Source: a bacterium (GTDB lineage: Bacteria > Patescibacteriota > Minisyncoccia > Phycocordibacterales > Zambryskibacteraceae). From it: DNA of 64,000 nt. The position numbers and the translations under genes were made by a program. The stretch is taken from positions 1 through 64,000 of the forward strand of contig JAUSGI010000006.1 in assembly GCA_030649135.1 (NCBI GenBank), given 5' to 3'. This document shows, in pieces, positions 5,998 to 56,085 of this stretch (within the stretch, counting starts at the first letter, position 1; every line of letters begins with the position of its first letter). The notes beneath the pieces were generated by a model. That model had not been told where the DNA came from and made no database searches. It was given only the letters and a program-made list of their open reading frames with translations.

Positions 5998-6022
5998 AAT
6001 GGCTAGTATAGCAAAAACTTTA

Positions 6023-8094: not shown

Positions 8095-9888
8095 ATGGAA
8101 ACTCACAACGACGAGAAACGTAACTCGCTATTGTACCTCTTCAGCAAAACCTGGCGGTACTCCGAAGGTAACCGAAACAAGGTGGTCTGGTACTGGATCA
8201 TGTTCATAGTGGCCAACTCTATCCACATGTTCGCGAGTCCCCTGATTATGGCCAAGGTCATAAACATCATTCAGAAAGAAGGGGTCACGACGAAGAACTT
8301 CAAAGTTCTTTTGGGACTCTTGATGCTTACTCTCCTCATCACCCTAGTTTTTTGGTCGCTTCATGGTCCAGCGCGCTGTATCGAGAGAGGTAATGCCTTC
8401 CATGCCCGCCTGAACTACTGGCGATTTCTCTTAAGGGGCGTGATGACCCTCCCCATGGAATGGCACGCGGGTCATCATTCGGGCGACACGATCGACAAGA
8501 GTCAGAAAGGGACTAGTTCCCTCTTCACCTTCGCGGAAGACTCGTTCATGGTGATCTGGGGAACTGTCCAGCTCACAGCAAGTCTCATGATGCTCTTCGT
8601 CTTCGGCAATGTATCGGTCGTACTAATCGTCCTCATGATGATCTTCATTTCGATCTGGATCACAGTACACTTCGACCGACAGTTGCTCCCGCAATACACA
8701 GCGCTCAACAGAATGGAGAATGAGATCTCGGCAAGTGTCTTTGACGCGATCTCAAACATTGCTACCGTCATCACCTTGCGCGTCGAGAAACTGGTCTTCT
8801 CTGCCATCATGCACAAGATGGAGAAGCCATTTGAACTCTTCAAGTACAATCAGCGACTAAGTGAGTTCAAGTGGTTCCTGAACGGCGTATGTGTCACTAT
8901 CATGACCATCCTGGTCCTTGTCGTGTACTTCTGGCAGAACATCGACACAGCTCAAGGCGTGTTGGTGGGAAGTGTCTATATCCTCATCAACTACCTCGAA
9001 AAAATCAGTGAGTTGTTCTACACCTTCACTAGGATGTACGGCGACATCGTCAGACAGAAGTCCCGAGTGATAAACTCCGAGGAACTCGCGCGAGACTTCA
9101 AGACCGAAAACTTCACAAACCATGTGTTGCCAGAAAGTTGGCAACGCTTGGAGATAGGAGGTCTAAACTTCTCGTATCACAACGACAACGATGGTGCCCT
9201 ACACTTAGAGAACATATCAGCTTCGTTCGAACGTGGTAAGCGGTATGCCATAGTTGGAGCAAGCGGGGGCGGTAAATCAACCCTTCTTAAGATCATGAGA
9301 GACCTTTACCATCCTCGTAGTGGCATACTCCGAGTAGATGGCGAGAGAGTTCACGATGGCTTTGCGGGAATCAGTCGAGCTATCGCCCTCGTACCACAGA
9401 ACCCGGAGATCTTTGCCACCACCATATGGGAGAACATCACCCTAGGGACAGAGTATGATCTGGAGTTCGTCAAACACTTCACCGACATGGCTTGCTTTAC
9501 TGATGTGGTTGAAGGACTTCCGAAAAAGTTCGAATCCTCAATCAAGGAGAAAGGGGTGAATCTCTCAGGTGGCCAGCAACAACGCCTGGCACTAGCTCGA
9601 GGACTTTTGGCTTGTCATGACAAAGATGTGGTACTTCTCGATGAACCTACGTCGAGCCTAGATACAGCCACAGAGATGAGAGTCTATCGGAATATCTTCC
9701 GAGAGTTTCGCGACAAGACTATCGTCTCCTCTGTTCACCGACTGCATTTACTCCCACTCTTCCATGAGATCTACATATTCAGCGGCGGGAGAATCATAGC
9801 TTCAGGAACTCTCGAGAACTTACTCACAGACTGTCCCGAGTTCCAGGAGCTGTGGCAGGAGTATCACGAGCACAGAGAGGAGGTGTGA
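8095..9888 (+). CDS. ABC transporter, fused permease/ATP-binding protein (type I exporter)
   Basis: Six predicted TM helices, then Walker A GASGGGKST, signature LSGGQQQR and Walker B VVLLDEPTS; AGGAGG SD 8 nt upstream of the ATG at 8095; GC content somewhat above the local background. Confidence 0.85.
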   Translation: METHNDEKRNSLLYLFSKTWRYSEGNRNKVVWYWIMFIVANSIHMFASPLIMAKVINIIQKEGVTTKNFKVLLGLLMLTLLITLVFWSLHGPARCIERGNAFHARLNYWRFLLRGVMTLPMEWHAGHHSGDTIDKSQKGTSSLFTFAEDSFMVIWGTVQLTASLMMLFVFGNVSVVLIVLMMIFISIWITVHFDRQLLPQYTALNRMENEISASVFDAISNIATVITLRVEKLVFSAIMHKMEKPFELFKYNQRLSEFKWFLNGVCVTIMTILVLVVYFWQNIDTAQGVLVGSVYILINYLEKISELFYTFTRMYGDIVRQKSRVINSEELARDFKTENFTNHVLPESWQRLEIGGLNFSYHNDNDGALHLENISASFERGKRYAIVGASGGGKSTLLKIMRDLYHPRSGILRVDGERVHDGFAGISRAIALVPQNPEIFATTIWENITLGTEYDLEFVKHFTDMACFTDVVEGLPKKFESSIKEKGVNLSGGQQQRLALARGLLACHDKDVVLLDEPTSSLDTATEMRVYRNIFREFRDKTIVSSVHRLHLLPLFHEIYIFSGGRIIASGTLENLLTDCPEFQELWQEYHEHREEV

Positions 9889-9902: not shown

Positions 9903-9940
9903 CCGCCTAGTAGCGAAAGCACTAGGCGGTCTTTGTTTTA
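9903..9940 (+). terminator. Rho-independent terminator shared by the convergent ABC exporter gene and the purM-like gene
   Basis: ccgcctagt...actaggcgg hairpin followed by tctttgtttta. Confidence 0.55.
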
Positions 9941-11082: not shown

Positions 11083-11675
11083 CTCGCTCTCTTTCCAAGG
11101 TCGTAGACTTTGCGCTTCATGCGCTCGCGCCGCCACATGCCGAAATGTTTCAGATAGCCGAATTTGTAGACACGGATGGGAGCAAAACCGGCAAACCACA
11201 AAATGCCTTTGCGTAATTCGTTTGTGGTATCACCGAAAATAATACGCTGGACGAGAGGGGCCGTATCAGAAGTAACGACCATGGTGGCACTTTTCCCTTT
11301 CAGAAGTTTCCGCCACATATTGCCTCCATGGGTAAACTTGAAAGCAAATCCGGGAAGCCAAGTACGGTCGATTAAACCCTTTAGAAGCGCCGGCATCGTG
11401 GACCACCACGATGGATAGAACACCACAAAGTGTTCGCACCACCGTGTGTTCTCTTGGAACGCATGCAAATCCGGCTCGAGTTCTTGAATTTGCTTATAAC
11501 CCAAATGGAGAACGGGGTCGAAAACCATATCACCGATATTCATACGGCGTACTTCGTGCCCCGCCTCCCCCGCTCCCCGTTCATATTCACTGGCGAGCGT
11601 GCCATTGAGAGTATCCTTGTCCGGATGACCAAGCAAGATAAAAATTTTTTTCTTTTTATTTCCGAATCCAAACAT
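11079..11675 (-). CDS. NAD(P)H-dependent oxidoreductase, flavodoxin-like fold
   Basis: ILLGHPDKDTLNGTLA N-terminus and overall similarity to the MdaB/AzoR/KefF family. Confidence 0.65.
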   Translation of the reverse strand: MFGFGNKKKKIFILLGHPDKDTLNGTLASEYERGAGEAGHEVRRMNIGDMVFDPVLHLGYKQIQELEPDLHAFQENTRWCEHFVVFYPSWWSTMPALLKGLIDRTWLPGFAFKFTHGGNMWRKLLKGKSATMVVTSDTAPLVQRIIFGDTTNELRKGILWFAGFAPIRVYKFGYLKHFGMWRRERMKRKVYDLGKRAR

Positions 11676-12942: not shown

Positions 12943-13045
12943 AGTTCAATCTTATCACCCCAATACACATCATAAAATTAAAAGGGGTGCCGCTCGCAAG
13001 CGCACACCCCGGTGAGATGCCGACCATCGCTAGTGGCAGTAGCGG

Positions 13046-13594
13046 TTATCCTTCTTGGACGGCCTTGTAGTCATGGCCCTCCGCATAGTCCCAGTGATAG
13101 TTGGCTGCGACGCGGAGGTGCTGTACAACCGCCCCTATTGCCTTCCCGACAAGCGCGGAGATGAACTTCTCGTGCTTGTACTCATTCCAGTCCGGGGAGC
13201 GCCGCCACTGGTCGCTAATGTATTGCGTGACCTCCAGGAACTGCTTGTGGGAGTGGAGCACGAACCGCCGCCCCTTAGTCGCCCAAAGTAGCAGTATGAT
13301 CCCGTCGACGTCGGTCTTCTCAGTCACCGAGGCCAGTGTACAACTACGGCTAGTCACCTCTTTTCCCAACGGAAAGAGGTCCGCATAGACCAGGTCGATA
13401 CGCGGTACGCCAGGCTGAATGAGTTCCATGGAAGGAGAGAGCCTGGAGATATCGCGAGTGGGAATTCCCTCTCCGTTCAGATACTCGGCCGTCCCCCTCA
13501 AACCAAGGAGGTTCCAACCCAGCGCACGAAGACTACCAGCGAATGGAACGAGGCCTTGCTTGTCAGCTGCGGACAACAGAATAGCTGTGTGCAA
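13046..13594 (-). CDS. MGS-like domain protein resembling the IMP cyclohydrolase (N-terminal) domain of PurH; GC-rich
   Basis: AILLSAADKQGLVPFAGSL...GTAEYL...IDLVYADLFP aligns to the PurH N-terminal MGS domain; about 58% GC versus about 42% background. Confidence 0.45.
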   Translation of the reverse strand: MHTAILLSAADKQGLVPFAGSLRALGWNLLGLRGTAEYLNGEGIPTRDISRLSPSMELIQPGVPRIDLVYADLFPLGKEVTSRSCTLASVTEKTDVDGIILLLWATKGRRFVLHSHKQFLEVTQYISDQWRRSPDWNEYKHEKFISALVGKAIGAVVQHLRVAANYHWDYAEGHDYKAVQEG

Positions 13595-13691
13595 GTGATT
13601 CTCCTTTCCGGGACTTTAACCCGGTGAGCTCTTGTTGTTTCTGTGGAGAATACTACCAGCAAAAAAACTTAGGGCAAGAGAATGTATCTTG

Positions 13692-14421: not shown

Positions 14422-14489
14422 AAATTATGATTCTAATGGTTAAATCTTGTACCAGCTGTCATTATACCATGGAAAAAGCCCCGCGCCAC

Positions 14490-15593: not shown

Positions 15594-15639
15594 GATGAAG
15601 CCATTATATCAGCAGAGCCTGTTATGTTAAAATGCCTTT

Positions 15640-16632
15640 ATGCGCAGAATCATACTTAAGGAAGGGCCACTGGTCTTCCTAAGGAACGTCCTGGTCATGG
15701 AAATCGTGGCCACCGTTTTTCTCTACGCCATTTCATTTCTTCAAAACTACGAGATGCTCTATCGAAGTTGGGGCCTGGCTAAATTTGCCCGTTACGACAT
15801 ATTCTTAATAGTCGCATTTTCGATCTTCCAATTGGTTTATGTCTCGTTACTTTTCCTCGATTGGTATTTTTCCCATTTCGAAATAACCGAAAAAGAGATT
15901 ACCAAAAAATCAGGCCTTTTATTCCGCCACCGCAAATCAGTCGCCCTCTCTGATGTGGTGTCTATCGAAACATACCATTCACCACTCGGTCGAATGATGC
16001 GTCACGCCACCATTATCCTCCAGCATGGCACAGGCAGAACCACTAAACTGAAAAACGTGTCCGGCGCAGACGAGTATGTCCATGTCATCAAACAAATGAC
16101 GCGCAATCCTTCCGGACGATTACCGACACATGATATTTCCTACCTGCTTAAAGAAGGAGAGGGCTTCTTGACCGAATTTAAGGAAACCCTTCGTTACGAC
16201 AAAAGGAGGCGCACGGTCAGCAAGGAAATAGAGCGCATGGTTATAAAAACTATTGTGGCTTTTCTCAATACTAAAGGCGGAACACTCCTCATTGGTGTTA
16301 GTGATGACGGCAACGTGGTGGGACTGGAAGATGATTATAAAACTCTGGTGAAGAAAAACCGTGATGGGTTTGAAAATCACTTAAGCATGCTCGTGAAAAC
16401 TATGATTGGACTGCCATTCACAAAATATGTCAGTGTTAAGTTTGAAAAAGTAAACGATTTAGAGGTTTGTTTGGTGTCCGTGGAAGAAAGCCACAGACCC
16501 GCATATCTCTACAACGGCGACCGGAAAGAAGATTTCTTTGTCCGGGTAGGCAACTCAACCCAGCCATTTTCTATGAGTGAAACGGAGGAGTATATCAAAA
16601 CGCGGTGGACCCTACCGGATTCGAACCGGTGA
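15640..16632 (+). CDS. Membrane-anchored bPH-like / AlbA_2 (Schlafen-like) domain protein
   Basis: Two N-terminal TM helices, then a C-terminal ...KTIVAFLNTKGGTLLIGVSDDGNVVGLED... AlbA_2-type fold; the last ~9 codons are antisense to tRNA-Cys. Confidence 0.55.
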   Translation: MRRIILKEGPLVFLRNVLVMEIVATVFLYAISFLQNYEMLYRSWGLAKFARYDIFLIVAFSIFQLVYVSLLFLDWYFSHFEITEKEITKKSGLLFRHRKSVALSDVVSIETYHSPLGRMMRHATIILQHGTGRTTKLKNVSGADEYVHVIKQMTRNPSGRLPTHDISYLLKEGEGFLTEFKETLRYDKRRRTVSKEIERMVIKTIVAFLNTKGGTLLIGVSDDGNVVGLEDDYKTLVKKNRDGFENHLSMLVKTMIGLPFTKYVSVKFEKVNDLEVCLVSVEESHRPAYLYNGDRKEDFFVRVGNSTQPFSMSETEEYIKTRWTLPDSNR

Positions 16633-16678
16633 CCTCCTCATTGCAAATGAGGCGCTCTACCAACTAAGCTAAGGGCCC
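16606..16678 (-). tRNA. tRNA-Cys (GCA)
   Basis: Reverse complement GGGCCCTTAGCTTAGTTGGTAGAGCGCCTCATTTGCAATGAGGAGGTCACCGGTTCGAATCCGGTAGGGTCCA folds as a cloverleaf with 7-bp acceptor stem, GCA anticodon in CTCAT/ATGAG stem and GGTTCGAATCC T-arm. Confidence 0.85.
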
Positions 16679-16732
16679 AGTAAAGCAAAAGTATAGTGGA
16701 CAGAAACTGAAAAATCAATGAGAAAGTAGGGC

Positions 16733-16762
16733 ATTGGGAACTGCGCGCAATATATGTTATAA
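16733..16762 (+). promoter_or_regulatory. Sigma70-like promoter (TTGGGA-N17-TATAAT) for the small secreted ORF
   Basis: ttgggaactgcgcgcaatatatgttataat, preceded by the 15-nt repeat cagaaactgaaaaat at 16701-16715. Confidence 0.4.
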
Positions 16763-16799
16763 TTCCGTACTAGATAAGCCAGACCACAAAGGGGGTACC

Positions 16800-17048
16800 A
16801 TGAAAGCATTCCTACTTGCGACCAGTGCCGTAGCTTTCGCCAACGGTATAAGACCGGTGACAAACACATTCTGTATAGAGACTGACCCAGCTAGGGAGAG
16901 CGATCCGTCGTACCTGCGAAAGATGGCTCTCGAAACCTACTGGGAGCGTAAGCTTTGGAAACAGCCGTGGGAGGATGTGCAGTTCTGGGTCACCGAGTAT
17001 CGCGATGGCCAGCCACGAGCTGTTCGCGAGCCGCTCTTTTCCGTTTAA
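16800..17048 (+). CDS. Small secreted hypothetical protein (82 aa), GC-rich cassette
   Basis: aagggggtacc-ATG Shine-Dalgarno; MKAFLLATSAVAFANG signal peptide; terminator hairpin follows. Confidence 0.5.
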   Translation: MKAFLLATSAVAFANGIRPVTNTFCIETDPARESDPSYLRKMALETYWERKLWKQPWEDVQFWVTEYRDGQPRAVREPLFSV

Positions 17049-17064
17049 ACACCCGCAGATAAAT

Positions 17065-17093
17065 GCCCGCAGAACATTGCGGGCGTTTTCGTT
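17065..17093 (+). terminator. Rho-independent terminator
   Basis: gcccgcagaacattgcgggc hairpin followed by gttttcgtt. Confidence 0.55.
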
Positions 17094-17177
17094 CCAAATG
17101 CTACCAGCGATTAACGAAGTCAAATAGTTATCCCCAGAAACTGAAAAATGGCTTAAAATATGAGTGTTATAACGTCA

Positions 17178-17206
17178 TTGACAAAGGCATGGTTATTTGC
17201 TATACT
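17178..17206 (+). promoter_or_regulatory. Sigma70 promoter TTGACA-N17-TATACT for the TlpA-like gene
   Basis: Consensus -35 and near-consensus -10 with 17-nt spacer; second copy of the 15-nt repeat cagaaactgaaaaat at 17135-17149. Confidence 0.5.
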
Positions 17207-17265
17207 GGAAGTAGACGTTCGCAATATGCAGTGAAATCCCACCCCTAACCAGAAAGGAACTAGTC

Positions 17266-17871
17266 ATGAAAACGTTTGTGACGATTCTCGCAGCACTCGC
17301 CATCGTGGCGACCTCGTCGACGGCGTCCGCTCAGATGATGAGCCGGACGACGCCCGGGGACGCTGTGACCACCAAGGTCACGGCGGACCGAGACATCCGG
17401 CTGAAGGAGCTGATCACGGCAACTGCCGTGCTCTCTCCCTGGCCCACCAGGCAACCACCGCCGTTCGAGTTCCCTGATGCGAGCGACCAGAAACGGTTGC
17501 TGACTCGGGACTACAAGGGCAAGGTGGTCATCGCCTACCTCTTTGCCGAGTGGTGACGCTCGTGCTGGAGCCAGTTGGCTCCCCTCGAGCAACTCTACAG
17601 GGCGTACCAGCCCCAGGGGCTGGCAGTGGTGGGTATCGAGAGCTGGTCGAGGCGCGGCAAGATGCGACTCCAGCTCTACCATGAGCAGTATGGGGTGACA
17701 TTCCCGCTACTGTATGGTGGCCCGCCCGACAAGTACTACTCGTTCGGCAGTCCGGCCACGTATCTCATCGACCGTTCTGGTCGAGTCGTGGCCTTCCGTT
17801 CGGGAGGGAGTGCGGACTGGAGTAGCGCCGAGTTTGGCGCTCTCCTCAAGACCCTCCTCGACGAGAAGTAA
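17266..17871 (+). CDS. TlpA/ResA-like periplasmic thiol:disulfide oxidoreductase with an in-frame UGA at the first Cys of CxxC (candidate selenoprotein W-U-RS-C); otherwise a nonsense-disrupted pseudogene
   Basis: Signal peptide MKTFVTILAALAIVATSSTASA; ...GKVVIAYLFAEW-TGA(17554-17556)-RSCWSQLAPLEQLYRAYQPQGLAVVGI...YGVTFPLL...PATYLIDRSGRVV follows the TlpA consensus WCxPCRxExPxL..LY..Y...G..V.G; the same frame continues 5' and 3' of the TGA. Confidence 0.55.
17558..17590 (+). promoter_or_regulatory. Candidate bacterial SECIS-like stem-loop immediately downstream of the in-frame UGA
   Basis: gctcg-tgct-GGAGCC-agtt-GGCTCC-cct-cgagc: upper stem starts 11 nt after UGA, lower stem gctcg/cgagc. Confidence 0.35.
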
Positions 17872-17932
17872 CTCTTCTCGCCGACCACAACACCCGCCAG
17901 CGACACCATGTCGCTGGCGGTTTTTCGTAATT

Positions 17933-18616
17933 CTACTTCCCCATTCTGCGTTCACGATTTTTATACTCGTTGAGTATGGAGTCCAGTATTACTTCACTAA
18001 AGTCTGGCCAATATGCATCCACAAAGAAAAGCTCACTATAAATACTCTGCCAGGTAAGAAATCCGGAAAGCCGCTTTTCCCCACCTGTGCGAATAATGAT
18101 AGCTGGATTGGGCATGCCAAGAGTCCAGAGATGCCGGGTAAGTGTCTCCTCGGTAATCTTGCCTTCCGTCGCGGCCGCATTAGCGGCCGCGGCTATCTCC
18201 GAGCGCCCACCGTAAGAAAGACACACCCACAGCATTAGGGCATCATTCTTCACGCCCATTTCTTCAATACGCGCCATGGCTTTCTGCATCTCAGTATCAA
18301 AACGCCCACGCTCTCCTATAAATCGAATGCGAATATTTTCCTTAGAAAGTTTGGCAAATAATCTGTCTATCCATATTTGAAACAGTTTCAAGAGGTACAA
18401 AACCTCTGCTTCGCTACGATTCCAGTTTTCTGTTGAAAATGCGTAGACAACTAGATGCTTGATTCCGCGATCACGTACCCAATACATGGTTTCGTGCAAG
18501 CGCTCCGCCCCTTGCCGATGCCCTTCAAGCAGAGGTAATCCTCTCTCTTTGGCCCAGCGTCGATTACCATCCAAGATAATGCCGATGCACTCAGGTATTT
18601 TGCTATCCGTATGCAT
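17933..18616 (-). CDS. uppS: Undecaprenyl-diphosphate synthase (cis-isoprenyl transferase)
   Basis: ILDGNRRWA, ...AFSTENWNR... and RTGGEKRLSGFL signature blocks. Confidence 0.85.
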   Translation of the reverse strand: MHTDSKIPECIGIILDGNRRWAKERGLPLLEGHRQGAERLHETMYWVRDRGIKHLVVYAFSTENWNRSEAEVLYLLKLFQIWIDRLFAKLSKENIRIRFIGERGRFDTEMQKAMARIEEMGVKNDALMLWVCLSYGGRSEIAAAANAAATEGKITEETLTRHLWTLGMPNPAIIIRTGGEKRLSGFLTWQSIYSELFFVDAYWPDFSEVILDSILNEYKNRERRMGK

Positions 18617-18645
18617 AGAAAATTAAAATACGACTCTGGTCTCGT

Positions 18646-19557
18646 TTATAACGCCAGTTTGAGAACGTGGTCGACAAAATCACGAGGGTGCCAACCTGTA
18701 GCTTCAAGCGAGCGATGGGTTAGAGAATCCTTATGGAGCGCCGGCAAAGAGTTGGTTTCCAATATATAAATCTTTCTTTTGGGCGTGACAATAAAGTCCG
18801 AGCTGGAGTAGTGGCGCAATCCGAGGACTTCGTGCGCCCGCTTTGCCATCTGCTCAATCCGCTTATTTTCTTCCACATTCAGTTCAAAATCGGCTTTACT
18901 CGACGGGATGAGAGCATAGATTCTTTCTCCCTTGGCATCATTAATGACGGCGCACGATACTTCCCCGCCCTTAACAAACTCCTCGACCAGTGCCCGTGGT
19001 GAATAAGTGAAAACCTTTTTAATTGACTGCTTAAGTTCATCAAAGGTGTGCGCCAGAGACACTCCGAGAGACCCGCTCGCATTTGCCGGTTTAACTATCA
19101 CTGGATGAAGATAGGTTCTAAAAATATTAATTAGTTGGTCCTCGTTTAAATTATCTTCGGTGATAAGTTCGTGTACAGGAGTGAGGAGAGAATGCTCTTG
19201 GTATAGACGCTTGGACAACTCTTTGTTCATAGCCAATGTCGAAGCTAGGGCACCCGAACCAGTAAAAGGAACCTGCAGTCCATCGAGAATTCTTTGCACT
19301 TGACCATCTTCTCCATATGAGCCATGAAGTGCGTTCCAGACTACGTCTGTGTGCTCTAGAGCACGATGCGGCTCATGCACCAATCCTCCGCGATGCCATT
19401 CACCATCTTTAGAGATAAAGATGTCTACTGGTTCGTAGGTCTCCGGCGTCTCTCGCAAGGCCGAAAGAATATGCGCCCCTGTCTGAAGAGAAGCGCTATA
19501 GTCGCTAGACGGCCCCCCGCGTAGTACAGCTACCCTAATTTTCGAAGAAAGGTTCAT
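18646..19557 (-). CDS. ddl: D-alanine--D-alanine ligase
   Basis: IRVAVLRGGPSSDY...; ATP-grasp core; start set at MNLSSKIRV. Confidence 0.85.
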   Translation of the reverse strand: MNLSSKIRVAVLRGGPSSDYSASLQTGAHILSALRETPETYEPVDIFISKDGEWHRGGLVHEPHRALEHTDVVWNALHGSYGEDGQVQRILDGLQVPFTGSGALASTLAMNKELSKRLYQEHSLLTPVHELITEDNLNEDQLINIFRTYLHPVIVKPANASGSLGVSLAHTFDELKQSIKKVFTYSPRALVEEFVKGGEVSCAVINDAKGERIYALIPSSKADFELNVEENKRIEQMAKRAHEVLGLRHYSSSDFIVTPKRKIYILETNSLPALHKDSLTHRSLEATGWHPRDFVDHVLKLAL

Positions 19558-19564
19558 CTCTGAA

Positions 19565-20731
19565 TTATATCCTAAATCCCTTCCCGCGTAACTTTCGATG
19601 ATAATTGATAGCAAAACGATGCGCTTCCGAGTTGGCCAGGAGAATTTCTCTGGAATGTTTTGTATCACCCATAATCTCCCGGGCCTTGTGCCTCTCATCT
19701 TTGACCACAGCTGCCACATTGATATCCAAACCAGCCTTCTCCAGAACTTCTTTAGCTACATTTATCTGTCCCTTTCCCCCATCGACCACAACCAGATTCG
19801 GAAGTCGCCACTCCGGATGAGCAAGTCTTCTCGTAAGCACTTCTTTCAAGTTAGCAGTATCGTTATTTTTATCGTCACGGATTTTAAACTTTCTATATTG
19901 GCTTTTCGCTAATTCTCCGTCCTCTATTACCGTCATCACACCCACTACGTTTGTCCCAGATATATGGGCGACATCATAGGCTTCTATTCTGAAAGAATTT
20001 CCCGTCATTCTTTCGATATCTTTTTTTATAAGCGCGATGTCCTGGATATGTTCCAGGGCGAAGATTTGTCTCTTGACCTTCTCGGCATCTTCGAACTTGT
20101 GTTCTTTGGCAAGAGTTTTCATTTCTTTTTCAAGAGATTTAATGAGCCGAGGCTTCTTAGCTTCGAAGAAAAGGCGCAGGTGATGGATAATTTTCCTATA
20201 ATCATTTTTTGATATCCGTCCGGCGCATGGTCCGGGGCAGAGACCGATTTGCGCGTTGAAACATAATCTGTTATTGAGTTTGCATTTACTATCGCGATAG
20301 GGAAAAATTTTGCGGATAATTTTAAGAGCCTCCTTCAATTCTCCCCCGTGCGGAAACGGTCCATATGTGCCAGAACCACGAGTCACAAGTACTTTAGGAA
20401 AATCTTCTTCGGTAATGGTGACGTAGTTATAACTTTTGTCGTCTTTCTCTTTGGAGTTGTAGAACGGCTGATGTTTTTTAATTTTACTTGCTTCGAGCAT
20501 CAGTGCTTCAAGCACCGAATCTGTCTCGATGAACTCAATGTTTTCCACCTCCTCAAGCATTTTAGCTATGAGCGGCCCCCTGGTGTCAAAGACGGTCTTT
20601 GACATGTAGCTTTTGACTCTGTCCCGAAGGCTCGTGGCCTTGCCTATGTACAGAATATTTTTCCCTTTTTTAAAGAAATAGATCCCTGGGGTGTCCGGCA
20701 AGGTAAATTTCTTTAAATCTTGACTATTCAT
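19565..20731 (-). CDS. uvrC: Excinuclease ABC subunit C, short form (GIY-YIG + UvrBC + RNaseH-like, no C-terminal HhH pair)
   Basis: GIYFFKKGKNILYIGKATSLRDRV GIY-YIG motif, conserved UvrC core; start at MNSQDLKK. Confidence 0.8.
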   Translation of the reverse strand: MNSQDLKKFTLPDTPGIYFFKKGKNILYIGKATSLRDRVKSYMSKTVFDTRGPLIAKMLEEVENIEFIETDSVLEALMLEASKIKKHQPFYNSKEKDDKSYNYVTITEEDFPKVLVTRGSGTYGPFPHGGELKEALKIIRKIFPYRDSKCKLNNRLCFNAQIGLCPGPCAGRISKNDYRKIIHHLRLFFEAKKPRLIKSLEKEMKTLAKEHKFEDAEKVKRQIFALEHIQDIALIKKDIERMTGNSFRIEAYDVAHISGTNVVGVMTVIEDGELAKSQYRKFKIRDDKNNDTANLKEVLTRRLAHPEWRLPNLVVVDGGKGQINVAKEVLEKAGLDINVAAVVKDERHKAREIMGDTKHSREILLANSEAHRFAINYHRKLRGKGFRI

Positions 20732-20792
20732 ATGGTGAGTATAGTATTTGACTTGAGTAGGTTGTACAACACCGCCGAGGAGGAGGCAGGCC

Positions 20793-20987
20793 ATGATGGT
20801 TTTCGGCCGACAGAAGGCAGCTCGTCTTCAGCCTACGCTGGAGGAGGAGATCCACCAGACATGGAATGACCAGGAGGATGTCATCAAGGATCTCCCCGCC
20901 TACGACTGGGGTGAGTTGGAGGAGCTCAACTCCCCCTTCGCAGTGAGGACACACCCCACTCTCGGCGACATTTTGCGGTTCCTGTAG
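20793..20987 (+). CDS. Small hypothetical protein (64 aa) in a GC-rich minicassette between uvrC and uvrA
   Basis: gaggaggagg SD, acidic 64-aa ORF, strong terminator immediately downstream. Confidence 0.4.
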   Translation: MMVFGRQKAARLQPTLEEEIHQTWNDQEDVIKDLPAYDWGELEELNSPFAVRTHPTLGDILRFL

Positions 20988-21003
20988 CGCACCGAAGGTG
21001 GGC

Positions 21004-21045
21004 GACGACCCGGGCTAGCACAAGCCGGGTCGTCTATTTTTTATT
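21004..21045 (+). terminator. Rho-independent terminator, likely bidirectional for the minicassette and uvrA
   Basis: gacgacccgg-gctagcacaag-ccgggtcgtc hairpin followed by tatttttt. Confidence 0.6.
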
Positions 21046-25632: not shown

Positions 25633-25749
25633 AAGAAACTTACATTACAATACTTTTGGACATTTTGCTGTTAACTATTGATACTTACGACATCATATGA
25701 TACCCTGCCCTGCAGACACCCCCAACCTCCCACACACGAAGGAGAAGTC

Positions 25750-26166
25750 ATGGTCATCAGAACAGCTCGGAGAAGACGAGAAGAGCGAGAAAGGTACGTC
25801 GAGAAGGATGCACGAACCCTCTACAACCCGACACTCAACGGAATCTGCATCACGATTGCGTGGGCAACCAACTACGCGATGAAAGGACATCCTCTCAACG
25901 AGAATCATCCGAAGTGGGCGGAGTACTTCGCCTACAGCGAATGGTTCCGGCACCGTATCTGTGCCCAGCTCAAGCTCCCGCTCGACACGAAGTGGGAAGA
26001 CATCTATCGTCGCGTAGGTGTTCTCGTCGAGGAGGCGTGTCCTTCCAGGGACGAATTCAAGAGGGCATACGACTTCGGGAAGAGCCAGCACCTTCACGAC
26101 GAGCTAGGACCTGAGATGTTCGCCAGATTCGAGATGATCAAGTACCAGATCGTCGGACGTATCTGA
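25750..26166 (+). CDS. Hypothetical protein (138 aa), GC-rich minicassette between uvrB and tgt
   Basis: aaggagaagtc-ATG SD; Arg/Glu-rich N-terminus; about 58% GC; terminator follows. Confidence 0.4.
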   Translation: MVIRTARRRREERERYVEKDARTLYNPTLNGICITIAWATNYAMKGHPLNENHPKWAEYFAYSEWFRHRICAQLKLPLDTKWEDIYRRVGVLVEEACPSRDEFKRAYDFGKSQHLHDELGPEMFARFEMIKYQIVGRI

Positions 26167-26185
26167 CACAGCTTCCCGTGACCGG

Positions 26186-26218
26186 CCGCGTGGGTCTACC
26201 TGACCACGCGGCTTTTTC
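26186..26218 (+). terminator. Rho-independent terminator (bidirectional with tgt)
   Basis: ccgcgtgg-gtctacctga-ccacgcgg hairpin followed by ctttttc. Confidence 0.55.
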
Positions 26219-31642: not shown

Positions 31643-31714
31643 TCCGCGGTGGCGCAGTGGTAGCGCAGGCGCCTGTTAAGCGCTTGGTCGTAGGTTCGAA
31701 TCCTACCCGCGGAG
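31643..31714 (+). tRNA. tRNA-Asn (GTT)
   Basis: TCCGCGGTGGCGCAGTGGTAGCGCAGGCGCCTGTTAAGCGCTTGGTCGTAGGTTCGAATCCTACCCGCGGAG cloverleaf, anticodon loop CTGTTAA. Confidence 0.85.
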
Positions 31715-39657: not shown

Positions 39658-39791
39658 CAAAGCCCGCTACCAGGAAGGCGCCTTTCGACCACCTCTACCA
39701 GAGTTTCCCCTGGTAACGCGACGAACGCCCTGATAACGGGTTCTCTATGTTCGTCGCGCTTTCTTGCCATGCCGGTGGTTGCCCGGTTTAG
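39658..39791. repeat. Structured repeat element, copy 1 (~134 nt, GC-rich), upstream of a minus-strand operon
   Basis: Shares aaagcccgc..gtttccc..gcgaNNaaNcg.ccct.a.acgggtt..NttNNtcg.c..ttgccatgccggtg..cccggtttagg with copy 2; 9-bp stem gcgacgaac/gttcgtcgc. Confidence 0.5.
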
Positions 39792-39907
39792 GTTTGTCGC
39801 ACATCCACAGTTGCATAATTCTATGGATGTTCTGAAAAGTTGAGCTTCGTTAGAGTCCTGTTTCTTATCTGATACTCTAGCTAAGGTAATTGCTTTCATA
39901 AAGTATT

Positions 39908-45203: not shown

Positions 45204-45205
45204 AA

Positions 45206-50800: not shown

Positions 50801-50954
50801 CTATAAAGAGAATTTTATGGTCGCGGAGCCAAGTATTGACTTTGGTATCCGATTGTGATTGAATGTTTGAAGAAAGCACGGGGGACCCGATTTCGTCGTG
50901 ATGTTTCTGCTTCAAAGTGTACGCATTTAGAGGCGCTAAGGAGGGAAACTGCTC

Positions 50955-51203
50955 GTGACGAACAATAGACCGAACGACATACACTGGGGTGCGTATCCGA
51001 AGGACGCTGTGCAGTGCGACGGCTGCGGTGGCCATGGATGTGACGTCTGCGGCAACAGGGGCTGGTTGCCTGCTGGCCACCCTCAAGGAAGGCGATGCCG
51101 ACGGGAAGGATGCAGGGAGCCGATTGCGCCGCCGCATTTCGGTGTCTACTGCACTCAAACATGCGCCTTCTTAGACAAGTCACGGACTCAGGACAGAATG
51201 TGA
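50955..51203 (+). CDS. Small Cys-rich hypothetical protein (GTG start), GC-rich minicassette
   Basis: aaggaggg SD 9 nt upstream of GTG; CDGCGGHGCDVCGNRGW...C..GC...C; about 65% GC; terminator follows. Confidence 0.4.
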   Translation: MTNNRPNDIHWGAYPKDAVQCDGCGGHGCDVCGNRGWLPAGHPQGRRCRREGCREPIAPPHFGVYCTQTCAFLDKSRTQDRM

Positions 51204-51212
51204 CCGCCACCG

Positions 51213-51268
51213 CCGCGGGACGCGAGAAAAACCTCTCGTCCCGCGGCAGAGGGGCGGCTTTTCTTTTT
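51213..51268 (+). terminator. GC-rich terminator hairpin followed by a T-run
   Basis: ccgcgggacgcgag-aaaaacc-tctcgtcccgcgg ... cttttcttttt. Confidence 0.5.
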
Positions 51269-51600
51269 ATACATAGATTCGAACATCCTCAACCCAGCCA
51301 AGTGGTATGAACGACAAAAAAGCTATTGAAATATTAATGGGGATAGACCACAGGTATAAATTAAGCGACAAAGAAAAAGATGCTATTTCTTCAGCCATTG
51401 GCATGCTCAGCTAGTCTTCACTGACTCAAAGCAGACTAGAATCCAAGAAAAGAAAGCGAGACTAAGAATCACTCAGGTGGTGCCAAGCTATTGAACCTAT
51501 ACGTAACTATTGACAGAATATATTATATATGCTAGACTAGATAAGTAGCCAAATTCCACGCTAATTTCAAGACCACTTGGGATAGCTAAGGAGAAGAGAG

Positions 51601-52068
51601 ATGGCACAGCTCTTTGTAGTTGATCAGAACGGGCACGTGCTCAATAACAACGTAGCCAGCATCATCAACCTCCGGGCGCTCGGTAAGAACATCGATGCCG
51701 AGAAGAACGGATGGGTGTACACGTGGCAGGAGGTATTCACCAGCGGGACGTACAACCTGCCGAAACCAATCTGCCCCGAGGTTCTCACTTTCGGCACGGC
51801 GCGGGCCTACCTCCACGCAAGCAATGGAATCGGAGGACTGCGGGTCACGGCCCGCATCGAGTGTACGGACCCTGCGGTGCTGGAGAAGGCAATCGAAATC
51901 GTGGTCAAGTACGTCGGTGGAAAGGTCAGCACGTTTGACCTCAACCAGCCGGCGCAGCCGAACTCCTTTGTCGATGGAGTTCGGAATGACCTCAAGCGTC
52001 TCTGGCACTGGGTTCGGTACAACGCCCTGCTCATGAGACGGCGCATCCTGCTCCGCCTCAGCATCTAA
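51601..52068 (+). CDS. Hypothetical protein (155 aa), GC-rich minicassette
   Basis: TTGACA-N17-TAGACT promoter at 51511-51539, aaggagaagagag-ATG SD; no known domain. Confidence 0.45.
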   Translation: MAQLFVVDQNGHVLNNNVASIINLRALGKNIDAEKNGWVYTWQEVFTSGTYNLPKPICPEVLTFGTARAYLHASNGIGGLRVTARIECTDPAVLEKAIEIVVKYVGGKVSTFDLNQPAQPNSFVDGVRNDLKRLWHWVRYNALLMRRRILLRLSI

Positions 52069-52190
52069 TCTGGAACAACAAGTAGTATCCGGCTCCACAA
52101 ACGATTGGCTCTATACAGCCCGCCGTGTGTGGAGCCTTTCGTTTTCATTTTTATACAAATTATTTTTCTACTTCTGATATACTTTCTGCC

Positions 52191-54022: not shown

Positions 54023-54303
54023 TACAAAACAGTTGGCGGAATAGAAAAGGAAGTCGTAGAGTCACCTACGACTTCCAAAAACAATGTCGGGCACATCACT
54101 ACACTCTCGGGAGCCACCCGAGGAGGGATTGCAAACTCCATCCCATGTGAAAACTCACGAGCGAAATCGCTATCACGATGATTACGAAGACGATGGTCCA
54201 GTCATAACTGTAGCTAGGCTTAGGCGTCGCCTTCGGTCTCTCGACAATCCAGAGTAAGTTATGAAGGTCATCCCTCTTTCGCATTTGCTTTCTCCTACCG
54301 TGC

Positions 54304-54570
54304 CTAGCGCTTGGCACATCTGGTTGTGAGAACAATCGCAGTGCCATCCCCATTGATGACAGCGGAGGAAGTAACTTGCTTGCATCCGGCGGTGATGTAG
54401 AGAGTCATTTCTTGTTCATTCAGCACCCTCTTAAAGTCTCTGGGCGCGAGATTCTCCGAAGTGCTGACCTTCCGGCTGATGACTTGCACCTCCTCTAGAG
54501 GGGGAGCATTAGCGCCTACAAATGACCATGCAGACATCACCAGCAACACCGCCACTAGCACCTCTACCAT
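54304..54570 (-). CDS. Small secreted hypothetical protein, GC-rich block
   Basis: aaggagggcgtg-ATG SD, signal peptide MVEVLVAVLLVMSAWSFVGANA. Confidence 0.4.
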   Translation of the reverse strand: MVEVLVAVLLVMSAWSFVGANAPPLEEVQVISRKVSTSENLAPRDFKRVLNEQEMTLYITAGCKQVTSSAVINGDGTAIVLTTRCAKR

Positions 54571-54822
54571 CACGCCCTCCTTCGTTCTCTGCGTTTTGTT
54601 CGGTACGGAGAATTACGATTGAGAACGGCGCACCACGCAGCGCCGTCCTTTCCCGCTTCTACATTTCCTGCGAGAAACACATGACCCCCAACGAGAATGT
54701 CTTCCGAACCTACGTCATCGACGGGATGTTTATCACATCGCCTCGGACTCATCGTACGCGGATCGAAGTCATCGCCCAGACATACGGGGCACACTTCAGC
54801 AACCCCTGCCATGTCTACCATG

Positions 54823-55089
54823 TCAGACCTCCATTGTCTCGAGAAGTGTGCTTCTATCCAACTCCTGACGATTAGCACAACGGCAGACCTTCTCACTTCC
54901 CGGTACCTTAAACTGCAACCACAAAGTGCTGTTGTACCAAACCCTGATCTCGTACCAGACGTACCAGCAGTGATACGGGACTCCATCTTCAGTAAAATGG
55001 TACAGTTCATCTTCCATCTTGCACCATCCATTTCTTGTATCGAAGAGCTCTCCTACCTTCATTGTACCCCTCATACAACCATCTTTCAC
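54823..55089 (-). CDS. Small Trp/Cys-rich hypothetical protein, GC-rich block
   Basis: taaggagggg SD upstream; 88-aa ORF. Confidence 0.35.
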   Translation of the reverse strand: MKDGCMRGTMKVGELFDTRNGWCKMEDELYHFTEDGVPYHCWYVWYEIRVWYNSTLWLQFKVPGSEKVCRCANRQELDRSTLLETMEV

Positions 55090-55190
55090 TTTTGTTATCC
55101 CCTCCTTAGTACGCCCCCATTTTACGATATAATTATAGGCAGAAACGATCTTAGTTCTAAATAAAATCGTCGGAGAGAGGGAGGGTTACC

Positions 55191-55934
55191 ATGTACTATC
55201 AGCTTCTCTTGGTGTTCGGTGTCGCAATGCTCTTGTCACAAGTGGCCGTGCTCGCGACGACCATCCAACTGCATCGTGCCGCAACACATGCAACGCTTGG
55301 AGGGCTCGTCCTCGATCCGAAGGTTGCATGGGCATGCAATCTCATCCTGTGGATTACCACTGGTCAGAGGAGGAGGCAGTGGGTGGCCGTGCACCGCAAG
55401 CACCACGTCTTCACAGACAAGGTGGGTGACCCGCACAGCCCACGCGTGCTCGGCTTCTGGCATGTCCAACTCGGCAACGTCTTTTACTATGTGTGGGCGC
55501 TGAGGGAGAAAGATATCCTGGACAAGTACGCTCCCGATATCCAGGAAGACAAGTGGGACCGGTGGCTCTTCAACCACGGCAAGCTTGGTCTCCTGCTAGG
55601 AACGGTAGCACTCTGCTCGCTCATGGGCATGTGGTGGGGACTGCTCACGGCACTAATTCATGCCGTGACATACATCTTCGTCATCGCCTCCTCCATCAAC
55701 GGCCTGTGCCACACCTACGGCTACAGGAACTTCGATAACACAGCGACTAATCTGCGTCTCCTCGCGTGGATCACCGGAGGCGAAGGGTTGCACAACAACC
55801 ATCACGAATACCCAACTCGTGCGAAGTTCAGTTTCTTCCCGGGCGAGTGGGACCCAGGGTGGTCGATCATCAAGCTTTTGATCAGAGTCAACCTGGCCAC
55901 CATGAAGAAGACCCTTTGGACAGTCCCGAGGTAA
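55191..55934 (+). CDS. Membrane fatty-acid desaturase
   Basis: His boxes HRAATH, HRKHH and HNNHH with 4 TM helices; gagagggaggg SD; about 58% GC. Confidence 0.7.
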   Translation: MYYQLLLVFGVAMLLSQVAVLATTIQLHRAATHATLGGLVLDPKVAWACNLILWITTGQRRRQWVAVHRKHHVFTDKVGDPHSPRVLGFWHVQLGNVFYYVWALREKDILDKYAPDIQEDKWDRWLFNHGKLGLLLGTVALCSLMGMWWGLLTALIHAVTYIFVIASSINGLCHTYGYRNFDNTATNLRLLAWITGGEGLHNNHHEYPTRAKFSFFPGEWDPGWSIIKLLIRVNLATMKKTLWTVPR

Positions 55935-56085
55935 GGATAACGGAAGGGCAAAACCTTCCTTCGACCCAACCCTGGGCGCATAGCGCCCAGGGTTGTTTTC
56001 ATTCACCACCAAGAGTTGTGCACATTCTGTCAACAGGATATCCACCAACTTATTCTGATGACATTGTTGTGTTAGAATCACTCAC

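What the first reader, a model, noticed from the sequence alone, without database searches (positions are those of the whole stretch)
16700..17900. GC-rich (55-65%) minigene cassettes, each with its own consensus promoter/SD and terminator, inserted between AT-rich core genes throughout the window
Discrete high-GC blocks occur at several sites. These are 13046-13594 (PurH-like MGS domain), 16800-17871 (secreted protein plus TlpA-like), 20793-20987 (between uvrC and uvrA), 25750-26166 (between uvrB and tgt), 50955-51203, 51601-52068 and 54304-55934 (desaturase and small ORFs). All start with strong AGGAGG-type Shine-Dalgarno sequences; some begin with GTG, and several have near-consensus TTGACA/TATAAT promoters. 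All end in GC-rich hairpin terminators. This contrasts with the weak signals of the about 42% GC core genes. The pattern suggests recent acquisitions from a high-GC donor (a host organism?) that integrated at intergenic sites, or an unrecognised cassette-insertion mechanism. Assembly chimerism is a less likely cause, given how cleanly the blocks fit between intact operons.
Basis: seen in the sequence. Interest (0 to 1): 0.5.

Follow-up and report, generated by a model that had tools for sequence, protein, structure and literature searches.

The report
Foreign GC-rich genes, one a selenoprotein

Summary
About eleven small transcription units have GC3 of 0.59-0.79, against 0.49 for the core. Each has a promoter, a 35-60 nt leader with a GGAGG-type Shine-Dalgarno sequence, and a strong hairpin terminator.

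The contrast is sharper than reported. Native genes are leaderless: a -10 box lies 3-12 nt before the start in 30 of 52 genes, and an SD in only 4 of 52. Among GC-rich genes, 11 of 12 are SD-led (Fisher p = 2e-8).

Mis-assembly is excluded by a second assembly and by a relative from another sample. No flanking repeats, attC sites or integrase support a dedicated cassette mechanism.

"Recent" is wrong for at least six units. The TlpA-like gene, the PurH-like gene, the desaturase and three small ORFs have positional orthologues in a relative, with dS of 0.6-0.9, similar to core genes. Other sites carry unrelated ORFs, are empty, or show deletion scars in relatives.

Best reading: hotspot-borne horizontally acquired genes from high-GC, SD-using bacteria, slowly ameliorating.

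The TlpA-like ORF (17266-17871) has an in-frame TGA at the first Cys of its CxxC motif, followed by a SECIS-like hairpin. The relative keeps both, with two compensatory base-pair changes, and dN/dS downstream is 0.14. This is a probable selenoprotein. Sec machinery was not found in the sequence available.

The parts
16604..16678 (-). tRNA-Ala(TGC), the left border of the variable zone that holds units C2 and C3
   Evidence: ARAGORN and Rfam. It is 100% identical in relative L073. Sequence beside it differs between relatives.
16701..16715 (+). Left copy of an exact 15-bp direct repeat, CAGAAACTGAAAAAT; the right copy is at 17135-17149
   Evidence: Only two copies occur in the window. Together they bracket unit C2. 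L073 has a single diverged copy upstream of its TlpA promoter. Its meaning is unresolved.
16734..17093 (+). Unit C2: promoter 16734-16763, SD 16787-16799, 82-aa signal-peptide ORF 16800-17048 (GC3 0.59), terminator 17065-17093
   Evidence: No Pfam, PHROG, NCBIfam or PADLOC match. In L073 this position holds unrelated sequence.
17178..17925 (+). Unit C3: promoter 17178-17206 (11/12 match), weak SD within 17249-17265, 201-codon TlpA/ResA-like AhpC-TSA ORF 17266-17871 (GC3 0.79) with a signal peptide, terminator 17894-17925
   Evidence: Pfam PF00578, E = 5.6e-12. ResA/TlpA/DsbE are the best matches in the PDB. There is a positional orthologue at L073 1230-625 on the minus strand, 75% nt and 71% aa identical.
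17554..17556 (+). In-frame TGA at the first Cys of the W-C-x-x-C redox motif (W-U-R-S-C); proposed selenocysteine codon
   Evidence: It aligns with the first Cys of WCGPC/WCPNC in all four Cys homologues. The same TGA is kept in L073. It is the only TGA in the window with coding-like GC3 on both sides (0.76 and 0.78). TGA is an ordinary stop in 10 of 45 long ORFs.
17558..17590 (+). SECIS-like hairpin: 5-bp lower stem, internal loop, 6-bp upper stem, 4-nt apical loop AGUU
   Evidence: MFE -20.1 kcal/mol, z = -3.47, 0 of 200 shuffles as stable. Against L073, 11 pairs are kept, 2 by compensatory double changes and 0 are broken.
12980..13660 (-). Unit C1: leader with SD within 13595-13609, TTG start, 182-aa PurH-N-terminal (MGS-like) ORF 13046-13594 (GC3 0.68), terminator 12980-13010
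   Evidence: Positional orthologue at L073 10001-10552, 62% identical, and one further homologue at 46%.
20720..21042 (+). Unit C4 between uvrC and uvrA: promoter 20720-20747 overlapping the uvrC start, SD within 20777-20792, 64-aa ORF 20793-20987 (GC3 0.75), terminator 21004-21042
   Evidence: L009/L010 carry a diverged homologue with the same N-terminal motif and a near-identical terminator. L012/L013 and L011 carry unrelated ORFs at the same junction.
25657..26217 (+). Unit C5 between uvrB and tgt: promoter 25657-25685, SD within 25738-25749, 138-aa ORF 25750-26166 (GC3 0.69), terminator 26185-26217
   Evidence: The junction is empty in L011 (tgt and uvrB a few bp apart) and holds an unrelated 165-aa ORF in L013.
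50836..51268 (+). Unit C6: SD within 50936-50954, GTG start, 82-aa Cys-rich (CxxCxGxG-type) ORF 50955-51203 (GC3 0.64), terminator 51215-51268
   Evidence: No family match.
51510..52145 (+). Unit C7: promoter 51510-51538, SD within 51585-51600, 155-aa ORF 51601-52068 (GC3 0.77), terminator 52107-52145
54049..55161 (-). Three SD-led small minus-strand ORFs: 54099-54284 (61 aa), 54304-54570 (88 aa, signal peptide) and 54823-55089 (88 aa); promoter 55161-55132; terminator 54076-54049
   Evidence: All three have orthologues in L071, 48-56% identical.
55172..55999 (+). Unit C10: SD within 55172-55190, 247-aa Delta-9-type fatty-acid desaturase ORF 55191-55934 (GC3 0.73-0.74), terminator 55967-55999
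   Evidence: Pfam PF00487 and NCBIfam DesA family. Positional orthologue in L071, 78% identical, with GC3 0.74 in both. More than 6000 homologues. The P0029 homologue, 63% identical, lies in a 65.5% GC genome.
14471..14489 (-). Orphan right arm plus T-run of a terminator: the scar of a lost GC-rich response-regulator unit
   Evidence: L073 has a 134-aa response-regulator gene here (8655-9059, GC3 0.74, SD-led) with a complete hairpin. The window keeps only GGCGCGGGGC plus Ts.
8095..9888 (+).

Best explanation
The blocks are accessory genes that entered this Patescibacterial lineage by horizontal transfer from bacteria with higher G+C and Shine-Dalgarno-dependent translation. Each arrived as, or became, a self-contained transcription unit: a sigma-70-type promoter, a 35-60 nt leader with an SD, the ORF, and an intrinsic terminator. 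Such a unit can sit between native operons without disturbing them. In the host genome, native genes are translated from leaderless or SD-less mRNAs.

The units occupy a few junctions between syntenic core genes. These are the tRNA-Ala flank, uvrA/uvrC, tgt/uvrB, AdoMetDC/DUF5679, Tag/peptidase M10, and the edge of the tRNA-Asn island. There they are gained, replaced and deleted over time.

Their ages differ. At least six predate the split from the nearest available relative and are still ameliorating. Others are lineage-specific.

Many encode envelope or secreted proteins. The unit at the reported coordinates encodes an exported ResA/TlpA-like thiol:disulfide oxidoreductase whose nucleophilic Cys is replaced by a UGA-encoded selenocysteine, directed by a bacterial-type SECIS hairpin.

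Shown: the composition contrast, the signal contrast, positional orthology, turnover, and the conservation of UGA, hairpin and downstream ORF. Inferred: the direction and source of transfer, leaderless translation, the way units are exchanged, and actual Sec insertion.
For: Composition
- Pooled GC3 is 0.68 in cassettes and 0.49 in core genes.
- At two-fold sites, C/(C+T) is 0.71 against 0.40 and G/(G+A) is 0.77 against 0.42.
- Native high-GC3 mreB keeps 0.43 and 0.42, so this is not the native bias seen in mreB.
- R/(R+K) is 0.59 against 0.41.

Signals
- 11 of 12 genes with GC3 of at least 0.59 are SD-led, against 4 of 52 others.
- 30 of those 52 have a TANNNT box 3-12 nt before the start; the background rate is 15%.
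- The same split is seen in the relative.

Turnover
- Relatives carry unrelated ORFs, empty sites, or a deletion scar at the same junctions.

Age
- Six units have positional orthologues.
- For the three large ones, dS is 0.63-0.92 and GC3 is 0.74/0.74, 0.79/0.75 and 0.68/0.56.

Donor-like background
- A desaturase homologue, 63% identical, is native to a 65.5% GC genome with GC3 0.85.

Real sequence
- second assembly; relative from another sample.

Selenoprotein
-.

Published context
- Transfers into Patescibacteria are common and mostly not recent (PMC12455944).
Against: - No donor was identified for any unit except, loosely, the desaturase.
- Most cassette proteins are orphans or have only 30-48% identical homologues.
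- For three units, the closest homologue other than the window's own protein comes from a related Patescibacterium with similarly raised local GC. This is what a lineage-intrinsic gene class would also give.
- GC3 has stayed high over about one synonymous substitution per site. My rough two-state estimate (inference, not a tool result) fits simple amelioration only if the donor's GC3 was at least 0.85-0.9 and acquisition came shortly before the split.
- The shift is larger at two-fold than at four-fold sites, which is not the classic high-GC signature.
- Leaderless initiation is inferred from motif spacing only.
- No selA, selB, selC or selD was seen. Only 64 kb of the genome and the flanks of relatives were searchable.
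Confidence: 0.65

Rival explanations
1. Lineage-intrinsic gene class. The GC-rich, SD-led genes are native, fast-evolving Patescibacterial genes. Selection tied to SD-dependent, leadered expression (codon choice, mRNA stability or structure) holds their composition high, rather than foreign ancestry.
For: - Six units are inherited, and GC3 stays high in both lineages at dS of 0.6-0.9.
- Apart from the window's own protein, the best homologue of the PurH-like gene is in a relative, and the TlpA-like gene's only close homologue is its orthologue in that same relative.
- There is a perfect class association between SD use and GC3 in two genomes.
- The shift is strongest at two-fold sites.
Against: - Amino-acid composition is shifted too.
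- Boundaries are sharp, with no spill-over into adjacent core gene ends.
- Presence/absence and replacement occur at the same junctions.
- The desaturase has thousands of 60-63% identical homologues, one of them in a 65.5% GC genome.
- Native mreB, with high GC3, shows a different codon pattern.
Confidence: 0.2
2. Dedicated cassette-insertion system. An integron-like or other site-specific machinery captures promoter-ORF-terminator cassettes at defined intergenic sites.
For: - Units have a uniform architecture.
- The same junctions are re-used by unrelated ORFs.
- One unit (C2) is bracketed by an exact 15-bp direct repeat beside a tRNA gene.
Against: - Units share no terminal motif beyond the SD. 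Shared k-mers are near the shuffled expectation at k=10 (25 against 15.1, null maximum 29); at k=11-12 the counts (9 and 6) are near or above the null means (3.8 and 0.9) only because of the C2/C3 15-mer and SD-type runs.
- No attC-like inverted repeats were found other than the terminators.
- No tyrosine recombinase or IntI was seen among the ORFs scanned. The only recombinase is a large serine recombinase inside the separate tRNA-Asn island.
- The right copy of the 15-mer is ancestral, not a target-site duplication.
- Exchange through flanking homology fits the pattern without dedicated machinery (my inference).
Confidence: 0.05
3. Artefact. The blocks are assembly chimeras or contaminating reads from a high-GC community member.
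For: The source is a metagenome-assembled genome, and the composition jumps are abrupt.
Against: - A second assembler reproduces 16650-21850 base for base, as well as the 50-58 kb and 25-27 kb regions.
- A relative from a different sample has the same genes in the same positions at 75-80% nt identity.
- Promoters and terminators mesh with the neighbouring genes.
Confidence: 0.02
4. The in-frame TGA marks a dead or split gene rather than selenocysteine. The TlpA-like gene was disabled on arrival from a Sec-using donor, or UGA is read through by another route (for example, near-cognate Cys or Trp).
For: - No Sec machinery or tRNA-Sec was found in the available sequence.
- TGY to TGA is a single substitution.
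- The reviews and searches I checked do not report Sec use in Patescibacteria.
Against: - TGA is conserved in two genomes that differ at about 25% of nucleotides across the unit.
- dN/dS downstream of the TGA is 0.14 at dS 1.2, stricter than upstream (0.31).
- The hairpin is preserved by two compensatory changes, one of which costs an amino-acid change.
- A pseudogene would not show any of these three.
Confidence: 0.2

Closest known systems
Phage 'morons' (Hendrix/Juhala concept; from my own knowledge)
   Same: A single extra gene with its own promoter and terminator, inserted between two conserved genes, with nucleotide composition unlike its neighbours, and present or absent between relatives.
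   Different: Here the units sit in a cellular chromosome between housekeeping genes (uvrA/uvrC, tgt/uvrB), not in a prophage. They are GC-richer than the host. They also differ from native genes in translation-initiation mode.
Chromosomal HGT hotspots and genomic islets, including those reported for Patescibacteria (PMC12455944)
   Same: Accessory genes are concentrated at a few junctions flanked by core genes and tRNA genes. Different cargo occupies the same site in relatives. Most transfers are old.
   Different: The units are very small, often a single gene. They are GC-rich, whereas horizontally acquired DNA is often AT-rich (my own knowledge). They are uniformly SD-led in an otherwise leaderless genome.
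Integron gene cassettes
   Same: Small, single-ORF mobile units; several different ORFs can occupy one site.
   Different: Integron cassettes are usually promoterless, carry attC sites and need IntI (my own knowledge). Here each unit has its own promoter and terminator, and neither attC nor an integrase was found.
Prx-like thiol:disulfide oxidoreductase selenoproteins (PF00578, UxxC) and Sec-containing TlpA/thiol:disulfide interchange proteins (listed in PMC13188914; PMC1088965)
   Same: AhpC-TSA/thioredoxin fold. UGA replaces the first Cys of CxxC. A stem-loop with a small G-containing apical loop lies immediately downstream of the UGA.
   Different: Only about 34% identity to the nearest Cys homologues. 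It has a signal peptide, like ResA/TlpA. It is found in a Patescibacterium, a group for which I found no report of Sec use.

Membership tests
Bacterial selenoprotein (Prx-like / TlpA-like thiol:disulfide oxidoreductase, UxxC) | In-frame UGA aligned with a conserved redox Cys in Cys-containing homologues | tested here: met
   The TGA at 17554-17556 aligns with the first Cys of WCxxC in P0001-P0004 and with ResA.
Bacterial selenoprotein (Prx-like / TlpA-like thiol:disulfide oxidoreductase, UxxC) | Stable stem-loop immediately downstream of the UGA with a small apical loop containing G (bacterial SECIS) | tested here: met
   17558-17590, -20.1 kcal/mol, z = -3.47, loop AGUU. Two compensatory pairs against the orthologue and none broken. 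No Rfam model matches, which is usual for bacterial SECIS elements. The loop-distance criteria are recalled from the bSECISearch literature and were not run.
Bacterial selenoprotein (Prx-like / TlpA-like thiol:disulfide oxidoreductase, UxxC) | Coding sequence conserved on both sides of the UGA | tested here: met
   dN/dS is 0.31 upstream and 0.14 downstream. Downstream amino-acid identity is 76%.
Bacterial selenoprotein (Prx-like / TlpA-like thiol:disulfide oxidoreductase, UxxC) | Genome encodes selA, selB, selD and tRNA-Sec | tested here: inconclusive
   None is present in the 64-kb window or in the fetched flanks. The AIRS protein at 9922-11199 scores as PurM-like, not SelD. The rest of the genome is out of reach.
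Bacterial selenoprotein (Prx-like / TlpA-like thiol:disulfide oxidoreductase, UxxC) | Thioredoxin-fold AhpC-TSA/Redoxin domain | tested here: met
   PF00578, E = 5.6e-12, 46.1 bits against a cutoff of 26.
Moron-like autonomous insert | Own promoter and own terminator flanking a single ORF between conserved genes | tested here: met
   Consensus scans and direct reading. These are motif-level results only; no transcript data exist.
Moron-like autonomous insert | Composition unlike the neighbours, and presence/absence between relatives | tested here: met
Moron-like autonomous insert | Resides in a phage or prophage genome | tested here: not met
   The flanks are uvrABC, tgt, ddl and uppS. There are no phage genes nearby and no IMG/VR relatives of three cassette proteins.
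Integron cassette | attC recombination site at the cassette end and an IntI integrase with attI | tested here: not met
   No shared terminal motif or imperfect inverted repeat other than the terminators. No tyrosine recombinase was seen among the ORFs scanned.
Recently transferred genomic islet | Absent from close relatives, or near-identical to a donor sequence | tested here: not met
   Not met for six of eleven units, which have positional orthologues at dS 0.63-0.92. No near-identical donor was found for any unit. Two units (C4, C5) could not be checked in the closest relative.

The most novel reading that the evidence does not exclude
A member of the Patescibacteria (CPR) uses selenocysteine. 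A horizontally acquired, exported ResA/TlpA-like oxidoreductase has kept its UGA codon and SECIS hairpin under purifying selection in at least two diverged genomes, which implies a working Sec-insertion system in an ultra-small symbiont.

More broadly, this lineage may run two translation-initiation regimes side by side. Native genes are leaderless. The horizontally acquired, GC-rich accessory genome is SD-led. The mode of initiation would then mark, and perhaps filter, foreign genes.
Probability: 0.5. Interest if true: 0.7.

Novelty: new variant of a known kind. Interest (0 to 1): 0.6.

Why it matters
Patescibacteria have minimal genomes and depend on other cells, so what they acquire and keep is informative about their lifestyle.

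This window suggests that their accessory genome can be recognised by two sequence features alone: raised GC3 and an SD-bearing leader, in a genome that is otherwise leaderless. That gives a cheap way to chart gene flow in uncultured lineages.

The retained cargo is biased towards envelope and secreted functions: a signal-peptide redox enzyme, a lipid desaturase and small secreted proteins.

If the TlpA-like gene is a true selenoprotein, Sec decoding exists in a phylum where I found no report of it. The gene would also serve as a handle for finding the Sec machinery, or an alternative way of decoding UGA, in these organisms.

Tried and rejected
- Structured-RNA reading of the GC blocks. Rfam gathering and E-value scans gave only the two tRNAs and two LOOT RNAs elsewhere, and codon periodicity argues for coding.
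- Shared flanking repeats or att sites. None was found; CAGAAAC is over-represented window-wide (22 against 10 expected) and is not specific to cassettes.
- SelD candidate. The AIRS/AIRS_C protein at 9922-11199 scores as PurM-like.
- tRNA-Sec. Absent from the window and from 29 fetched loci.
- Phage origin. Three IMG/VR scans found no relatives. PHROG hits were weak and of unknown function.
- Defence function. No PADLOC hit.
- The context of homologue P0130 was uninformative (1.3-kb contig, no DNA).
- att repeats for the tRNA-Asn island were not found.
- GTDB relatives (51-62% identical UppS for the three Patescibacterial hits) were too distant for synteny.
- Other in-frame TGA candidates. None was credible.
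- Literature searches for Sec or leaderless translation in CPR returned nothing relevant.
Full report
ORGANISM AND OBSERVATION

The window is 45.1% GC. Its UppS finds 51-62% identical relatives in Minisyncoccia/Paceibacterota and Yonathbacteria MAGs. NCBI holds the same proteins as 'MAG: bacterium', locus tag Q7R69_, on a 107.5-kb contig. This is a Patescibacterium.

The ORFs inside them have GC3 of 0.59-0.79, against 0.44-0.54 for core genes, and show the GC3 > GC1 > GC2 order expected of real coding sequence.

Reading the sequence confirms the rest of the description (consensus scans; coordinates). Each unit has a promoter-like site, a 35-60 nt leader with AAGGAG/GGAGG, an ATG, GTG or TTG start, and a strong G+C hairpin with a T-run.

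A SHARPER CONTRAST THAN REPORTED

The core genes do not merely have 'weak' signals. In a first set of 47 long, ordinary-GC3 ORFs, 25 have a TANNNT box ending 3-12 nt before the start codon, against a background of 15%. Only 2 have any SD-like motif, against a background of 8%.

On a curated list of 64 genes, 11 of 12 with GC3 of at least 0.59 are SD-led. Only 4 of the other 52 are, and 30 of those 52 have the start-proximal -10 box (Fisher p = 2e-8; Mann-Whitney p = 3e-6). The same split is seen in database gene calls of a relative.

Native genes therefore appear to be leaderless, and the GC-rich genes are leadered and SD-dependent. This is inferred from motif spacing; no transcript data are available.

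FOREIGN-LOOKING IN OTHER WAYS

- At two-fold sites, cassette genes use C over T at 0.71 (core 0.40) and G over A at 0.77 (core 0.42).
- Native mreB, which also has raised GC3, keeps 0.43 and 0.42 at those sites. The cassette bias is therefore not the native codon bias seen in mreB.
- Arg/(Arg+Lys) is 0.59 against 0.41, and GARP/FYMINK is 0.97 against 0.82.
- GC boundaries are sharp and do not bleed into the ends of the neighbouring core genes.

NOT AN ARTEFACT

Logan contigs of SRR13727527 reproduce 16650-21850 with 100% identity, as well as the 25-27 kb and 47-58 kb regions. A 35-kb contig from a different sample (ERZ27247831 k141_27910; loci L071 and L073) is collinear with the window at 75-82% nucleotide identity. 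That collinearity runs through the TlpA-like unit, the PurH-like unit and the desaturase block.

HOW OLD ARE THEY?

Core proteins of that relative are 68-94% identical to the window's, most of them 80-94%, with dS of 0.78-2.0. Positional orthologues exist for the following units:

| Unit | aa identity | dS | GC3 (window / relative) |
|---|---|---|---|
| Desaturase | 78-79% | 0.63 | 0.74 / 0.74 |
| PurH-like gene | 62-63% | 0.84 | 0.68 / 0.56 |
| TlpA-like gene | 71% | 0.92 | 0.79 / 0.75 |
| Three small ORFs at 54.1-55.1 kb | 48-56% | not computed | - |

So at least six of eleven units predate this split, and they evolve faster than core proteins. 'Recent acquisition' fails for these six.

A rough two-state calculation (my inference) shows the retained GC3 is still compatible with plain amelioration. 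It requires that the donor's GC3 was at least 0.85-0.9 and that acquisition came shortly before the split. A desaturase homologue, 63% identical, sits next to serC in a 65.5% GC genome with GC3 0.85. This shows that such donors exist.

TURNOVER AT FIXED JUNCTIONS

More distant relatives (core proteins 73-90% identical) keep the order mreB-tgt-uvrB-uvrA-[X]-uvrC.

- uvrA/uvrC. The window and L009/L010 carry diverged versions of one small gene, with the shared N-terminus M-x-FG-x-QKA-x-R and a near-identical terminator. L012/L013 carry an unrelated 87-aa ORF. L011 carries a 196-aa repeat protein. All have AAGGAGG SDs and raised GC.
- tgt/uvrB. This junction is empty in L011. It is occupied by unrelated ORFs in the same convergent architecture in the window and in L013.
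- AdoMetDC/DUF5679. The relative L073 has a GC-rich, SD-led response-regulator gene. The window keeps only the right arm and T-run of its terminator (14471-14489), which is a deletion scar.
- Beside tRNA-Ala. The 82-aa unit of the window is replaced by other sequence in L073.

MECHANISM OF INSERTION

The units share no terminal repeat beyond the SD itself. None of the ORFs scanned against Pfam near the scattered sites is a recombinase. The only recombinase found is a large serine recombinase at 31703-33409, next to tRNA-Asn. It belongs to a separate island that carries a primase-helicase, two LOOT RNAs and a type III R-M system. That island fills roughly 31.7-54 kb and is missing from L071.

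Nothing supports a dedicated cassette system. Illegitimate insertion, followed by exchange through the conserved flanks, is the economical reading; this is my inference.

THE UNIT AT THE REPORTED COORDINATES

ORF 17266-17871 is a signal-peptide AhpC-TSA/Redoxin protein (PF00578). Its closest solved relatives are ResA, TlpA and DsbE. Codon 97 is TGA (17554-17556), which lies exactly where homologues have the first Cys of W-C-x-x-C.

A hairpin follows four nucleotides after the TGA. It has a 5-bp lower stem, an internal loop, a 6-bp upper stem and the loop AGUU. Its MFE is -20.1 kcal/mol, z = -3.47.

The orthologue in L073 keeps the TGA. Of its five differences within the hairpin, four form two compensatory pairs (C:G to U:A and A:U to G:C, the latter at the cost of a Ser-to-Gly change). 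The fifth lies in the internal loop, and none breaks a pair.

Downstream of the TGA, dN/dS is 0.14 at dS 1.2. This is stricter than upstream, where it is 0.31. TGA is an ordinary stop in 10 of 45 long ORFs, and no other in-frame TGA in the window looks coding.

These are the standard criteria for a bacterial selenoprotein. UxxC Prx-like and TlpA-like oxidoreductases are known selenoprotein families (PMC13188914; PMC1088965).

What is missing is the machinery. No selA, selB, selD or tRNA-Sec occurs in the sequence I could reach. I found no report of Sec use in Patescibacteria in the reviews and searches available. That is absence of evidence only.

FUNCTIONS OF THE OTHER UNITS

- The desaturase is a short Delta-9-type enzyme.
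- The 182-aa protein resembles only the first ~60 residues of PurH.
- The 155-aa protein defines a rare family of about 20 members with a confident but unmatched fold.
- The remaining units are orphans with no Pfam, PHROG, NCBIfam or PADLOC match.
- Several carry signal peptides or membrane segments, which suggests envelope or host-contact roles. This is inference.

VERDICT

The finding is real and is not an artefact. The underlying process is an ordinary one: accessory genes at chromosomal hotspots, moron-like in architecture.

Three features are unusual:
- The acquired genes are GC-richer than the host.
- They form a distinct SD-led class in a leaderless genome.
- One of them is a well-supported selenoprotein candidate in a phylum not known to me to use selenocysteine.

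The 'recent transfer' and 'novel insertion mechanism' readings are not supported.

Noticed in passing
window 39675-39794 and 41046-41153 (minus strand): Two copies of the LOOT RNA motif (Rfam RF03000, 61-65 bits) lie 1.3 kb apart inside the tRNA-Asn island. They flank a very AT-rich 256-aa ORF (39908-40678; 31% GC, 37 Lys and 1 Arg).
   Followed up: no
window 31643-~54050: An integrated element sits beside tRNA-Asn. It carries a large serine recombinase (31703-33409), a Toprim/AAA_25 primase-helicase (33399-35546), an S49 peptidase, an AlbA_2 protein and a type III restriction-modification pair (42690-47077). In relative L071 the whole stretch is replaced by about 5.4 kb of other variable genes. 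No att repeat was found.
   Followed up: partly
window-wide, e.g. 5998-6020, 15594-15630, 56060-56085, 58425-58449: Core genes carry a TANNNT -10 box 3-12 nt upstream of the start codon and no SD. This implies predominantly leaderless mRNAs in this Patescibacterium and its relatives.
   Followed up: partly
window 16701-16715 and 17135-17149: An exact 15-bp direct repeat, CAGAAACTGAAAAAT, brackets the 82-aa unit next to tRNA-Ala. The relative has a single diverged copy at the right-hand position. It could be an insertion footprint or a shared regulatory site.
   Followed up: partly
window 17933-18616 vs L073 564-570: uppS lies between ddl and the TlpA-like terminator in the window. It is absent from that position in the closest relative, where ddl abuts the terminator directly.
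   Followed up: no
L073 1810-2100 (beside tRNA-Ala): A roughly 280-bp AT-rich insertion is flanked by an 11-bp repeat of the tRNA end (GCTAAGGGCCC) and by 14-bp inverted repeats (CCTCACATGACTAT). It looks like a miniature mobile element.
   Followed up: no
L011 9328-9918: At the uvrA/uvrC junction a relative carries a 196-aa signal-peptide protein. Its C-terminal part is a tandem array of GL(A/V)(L/Y)-type repeats, and it has a consensus TTGACA/TATAAT promoter and an AAGGAGG SD.
   Followed up: no
window 9922-11100 and 13046-13594: A lone PurM-like AIRS protein and a lone PurH-N-terminal-domain-like protein occur in the window. No other purine-biosynthesis gene was recognised among the window ORFs scanned.
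   Followed up: no
window 50955-51203: An 82-aa Cys-rich ORF has a DnaJ-like CxxCxGxG zinc-finger motif followed by a second Cys cluster. It has no family match.
   Followed up: no
window 14471-14489: Half of a terminator hairpin is left behind where the relative has a complete GC-rich response-regulator unit. This is direct evidence that these units are lost by deletion.
   Followed up: yes
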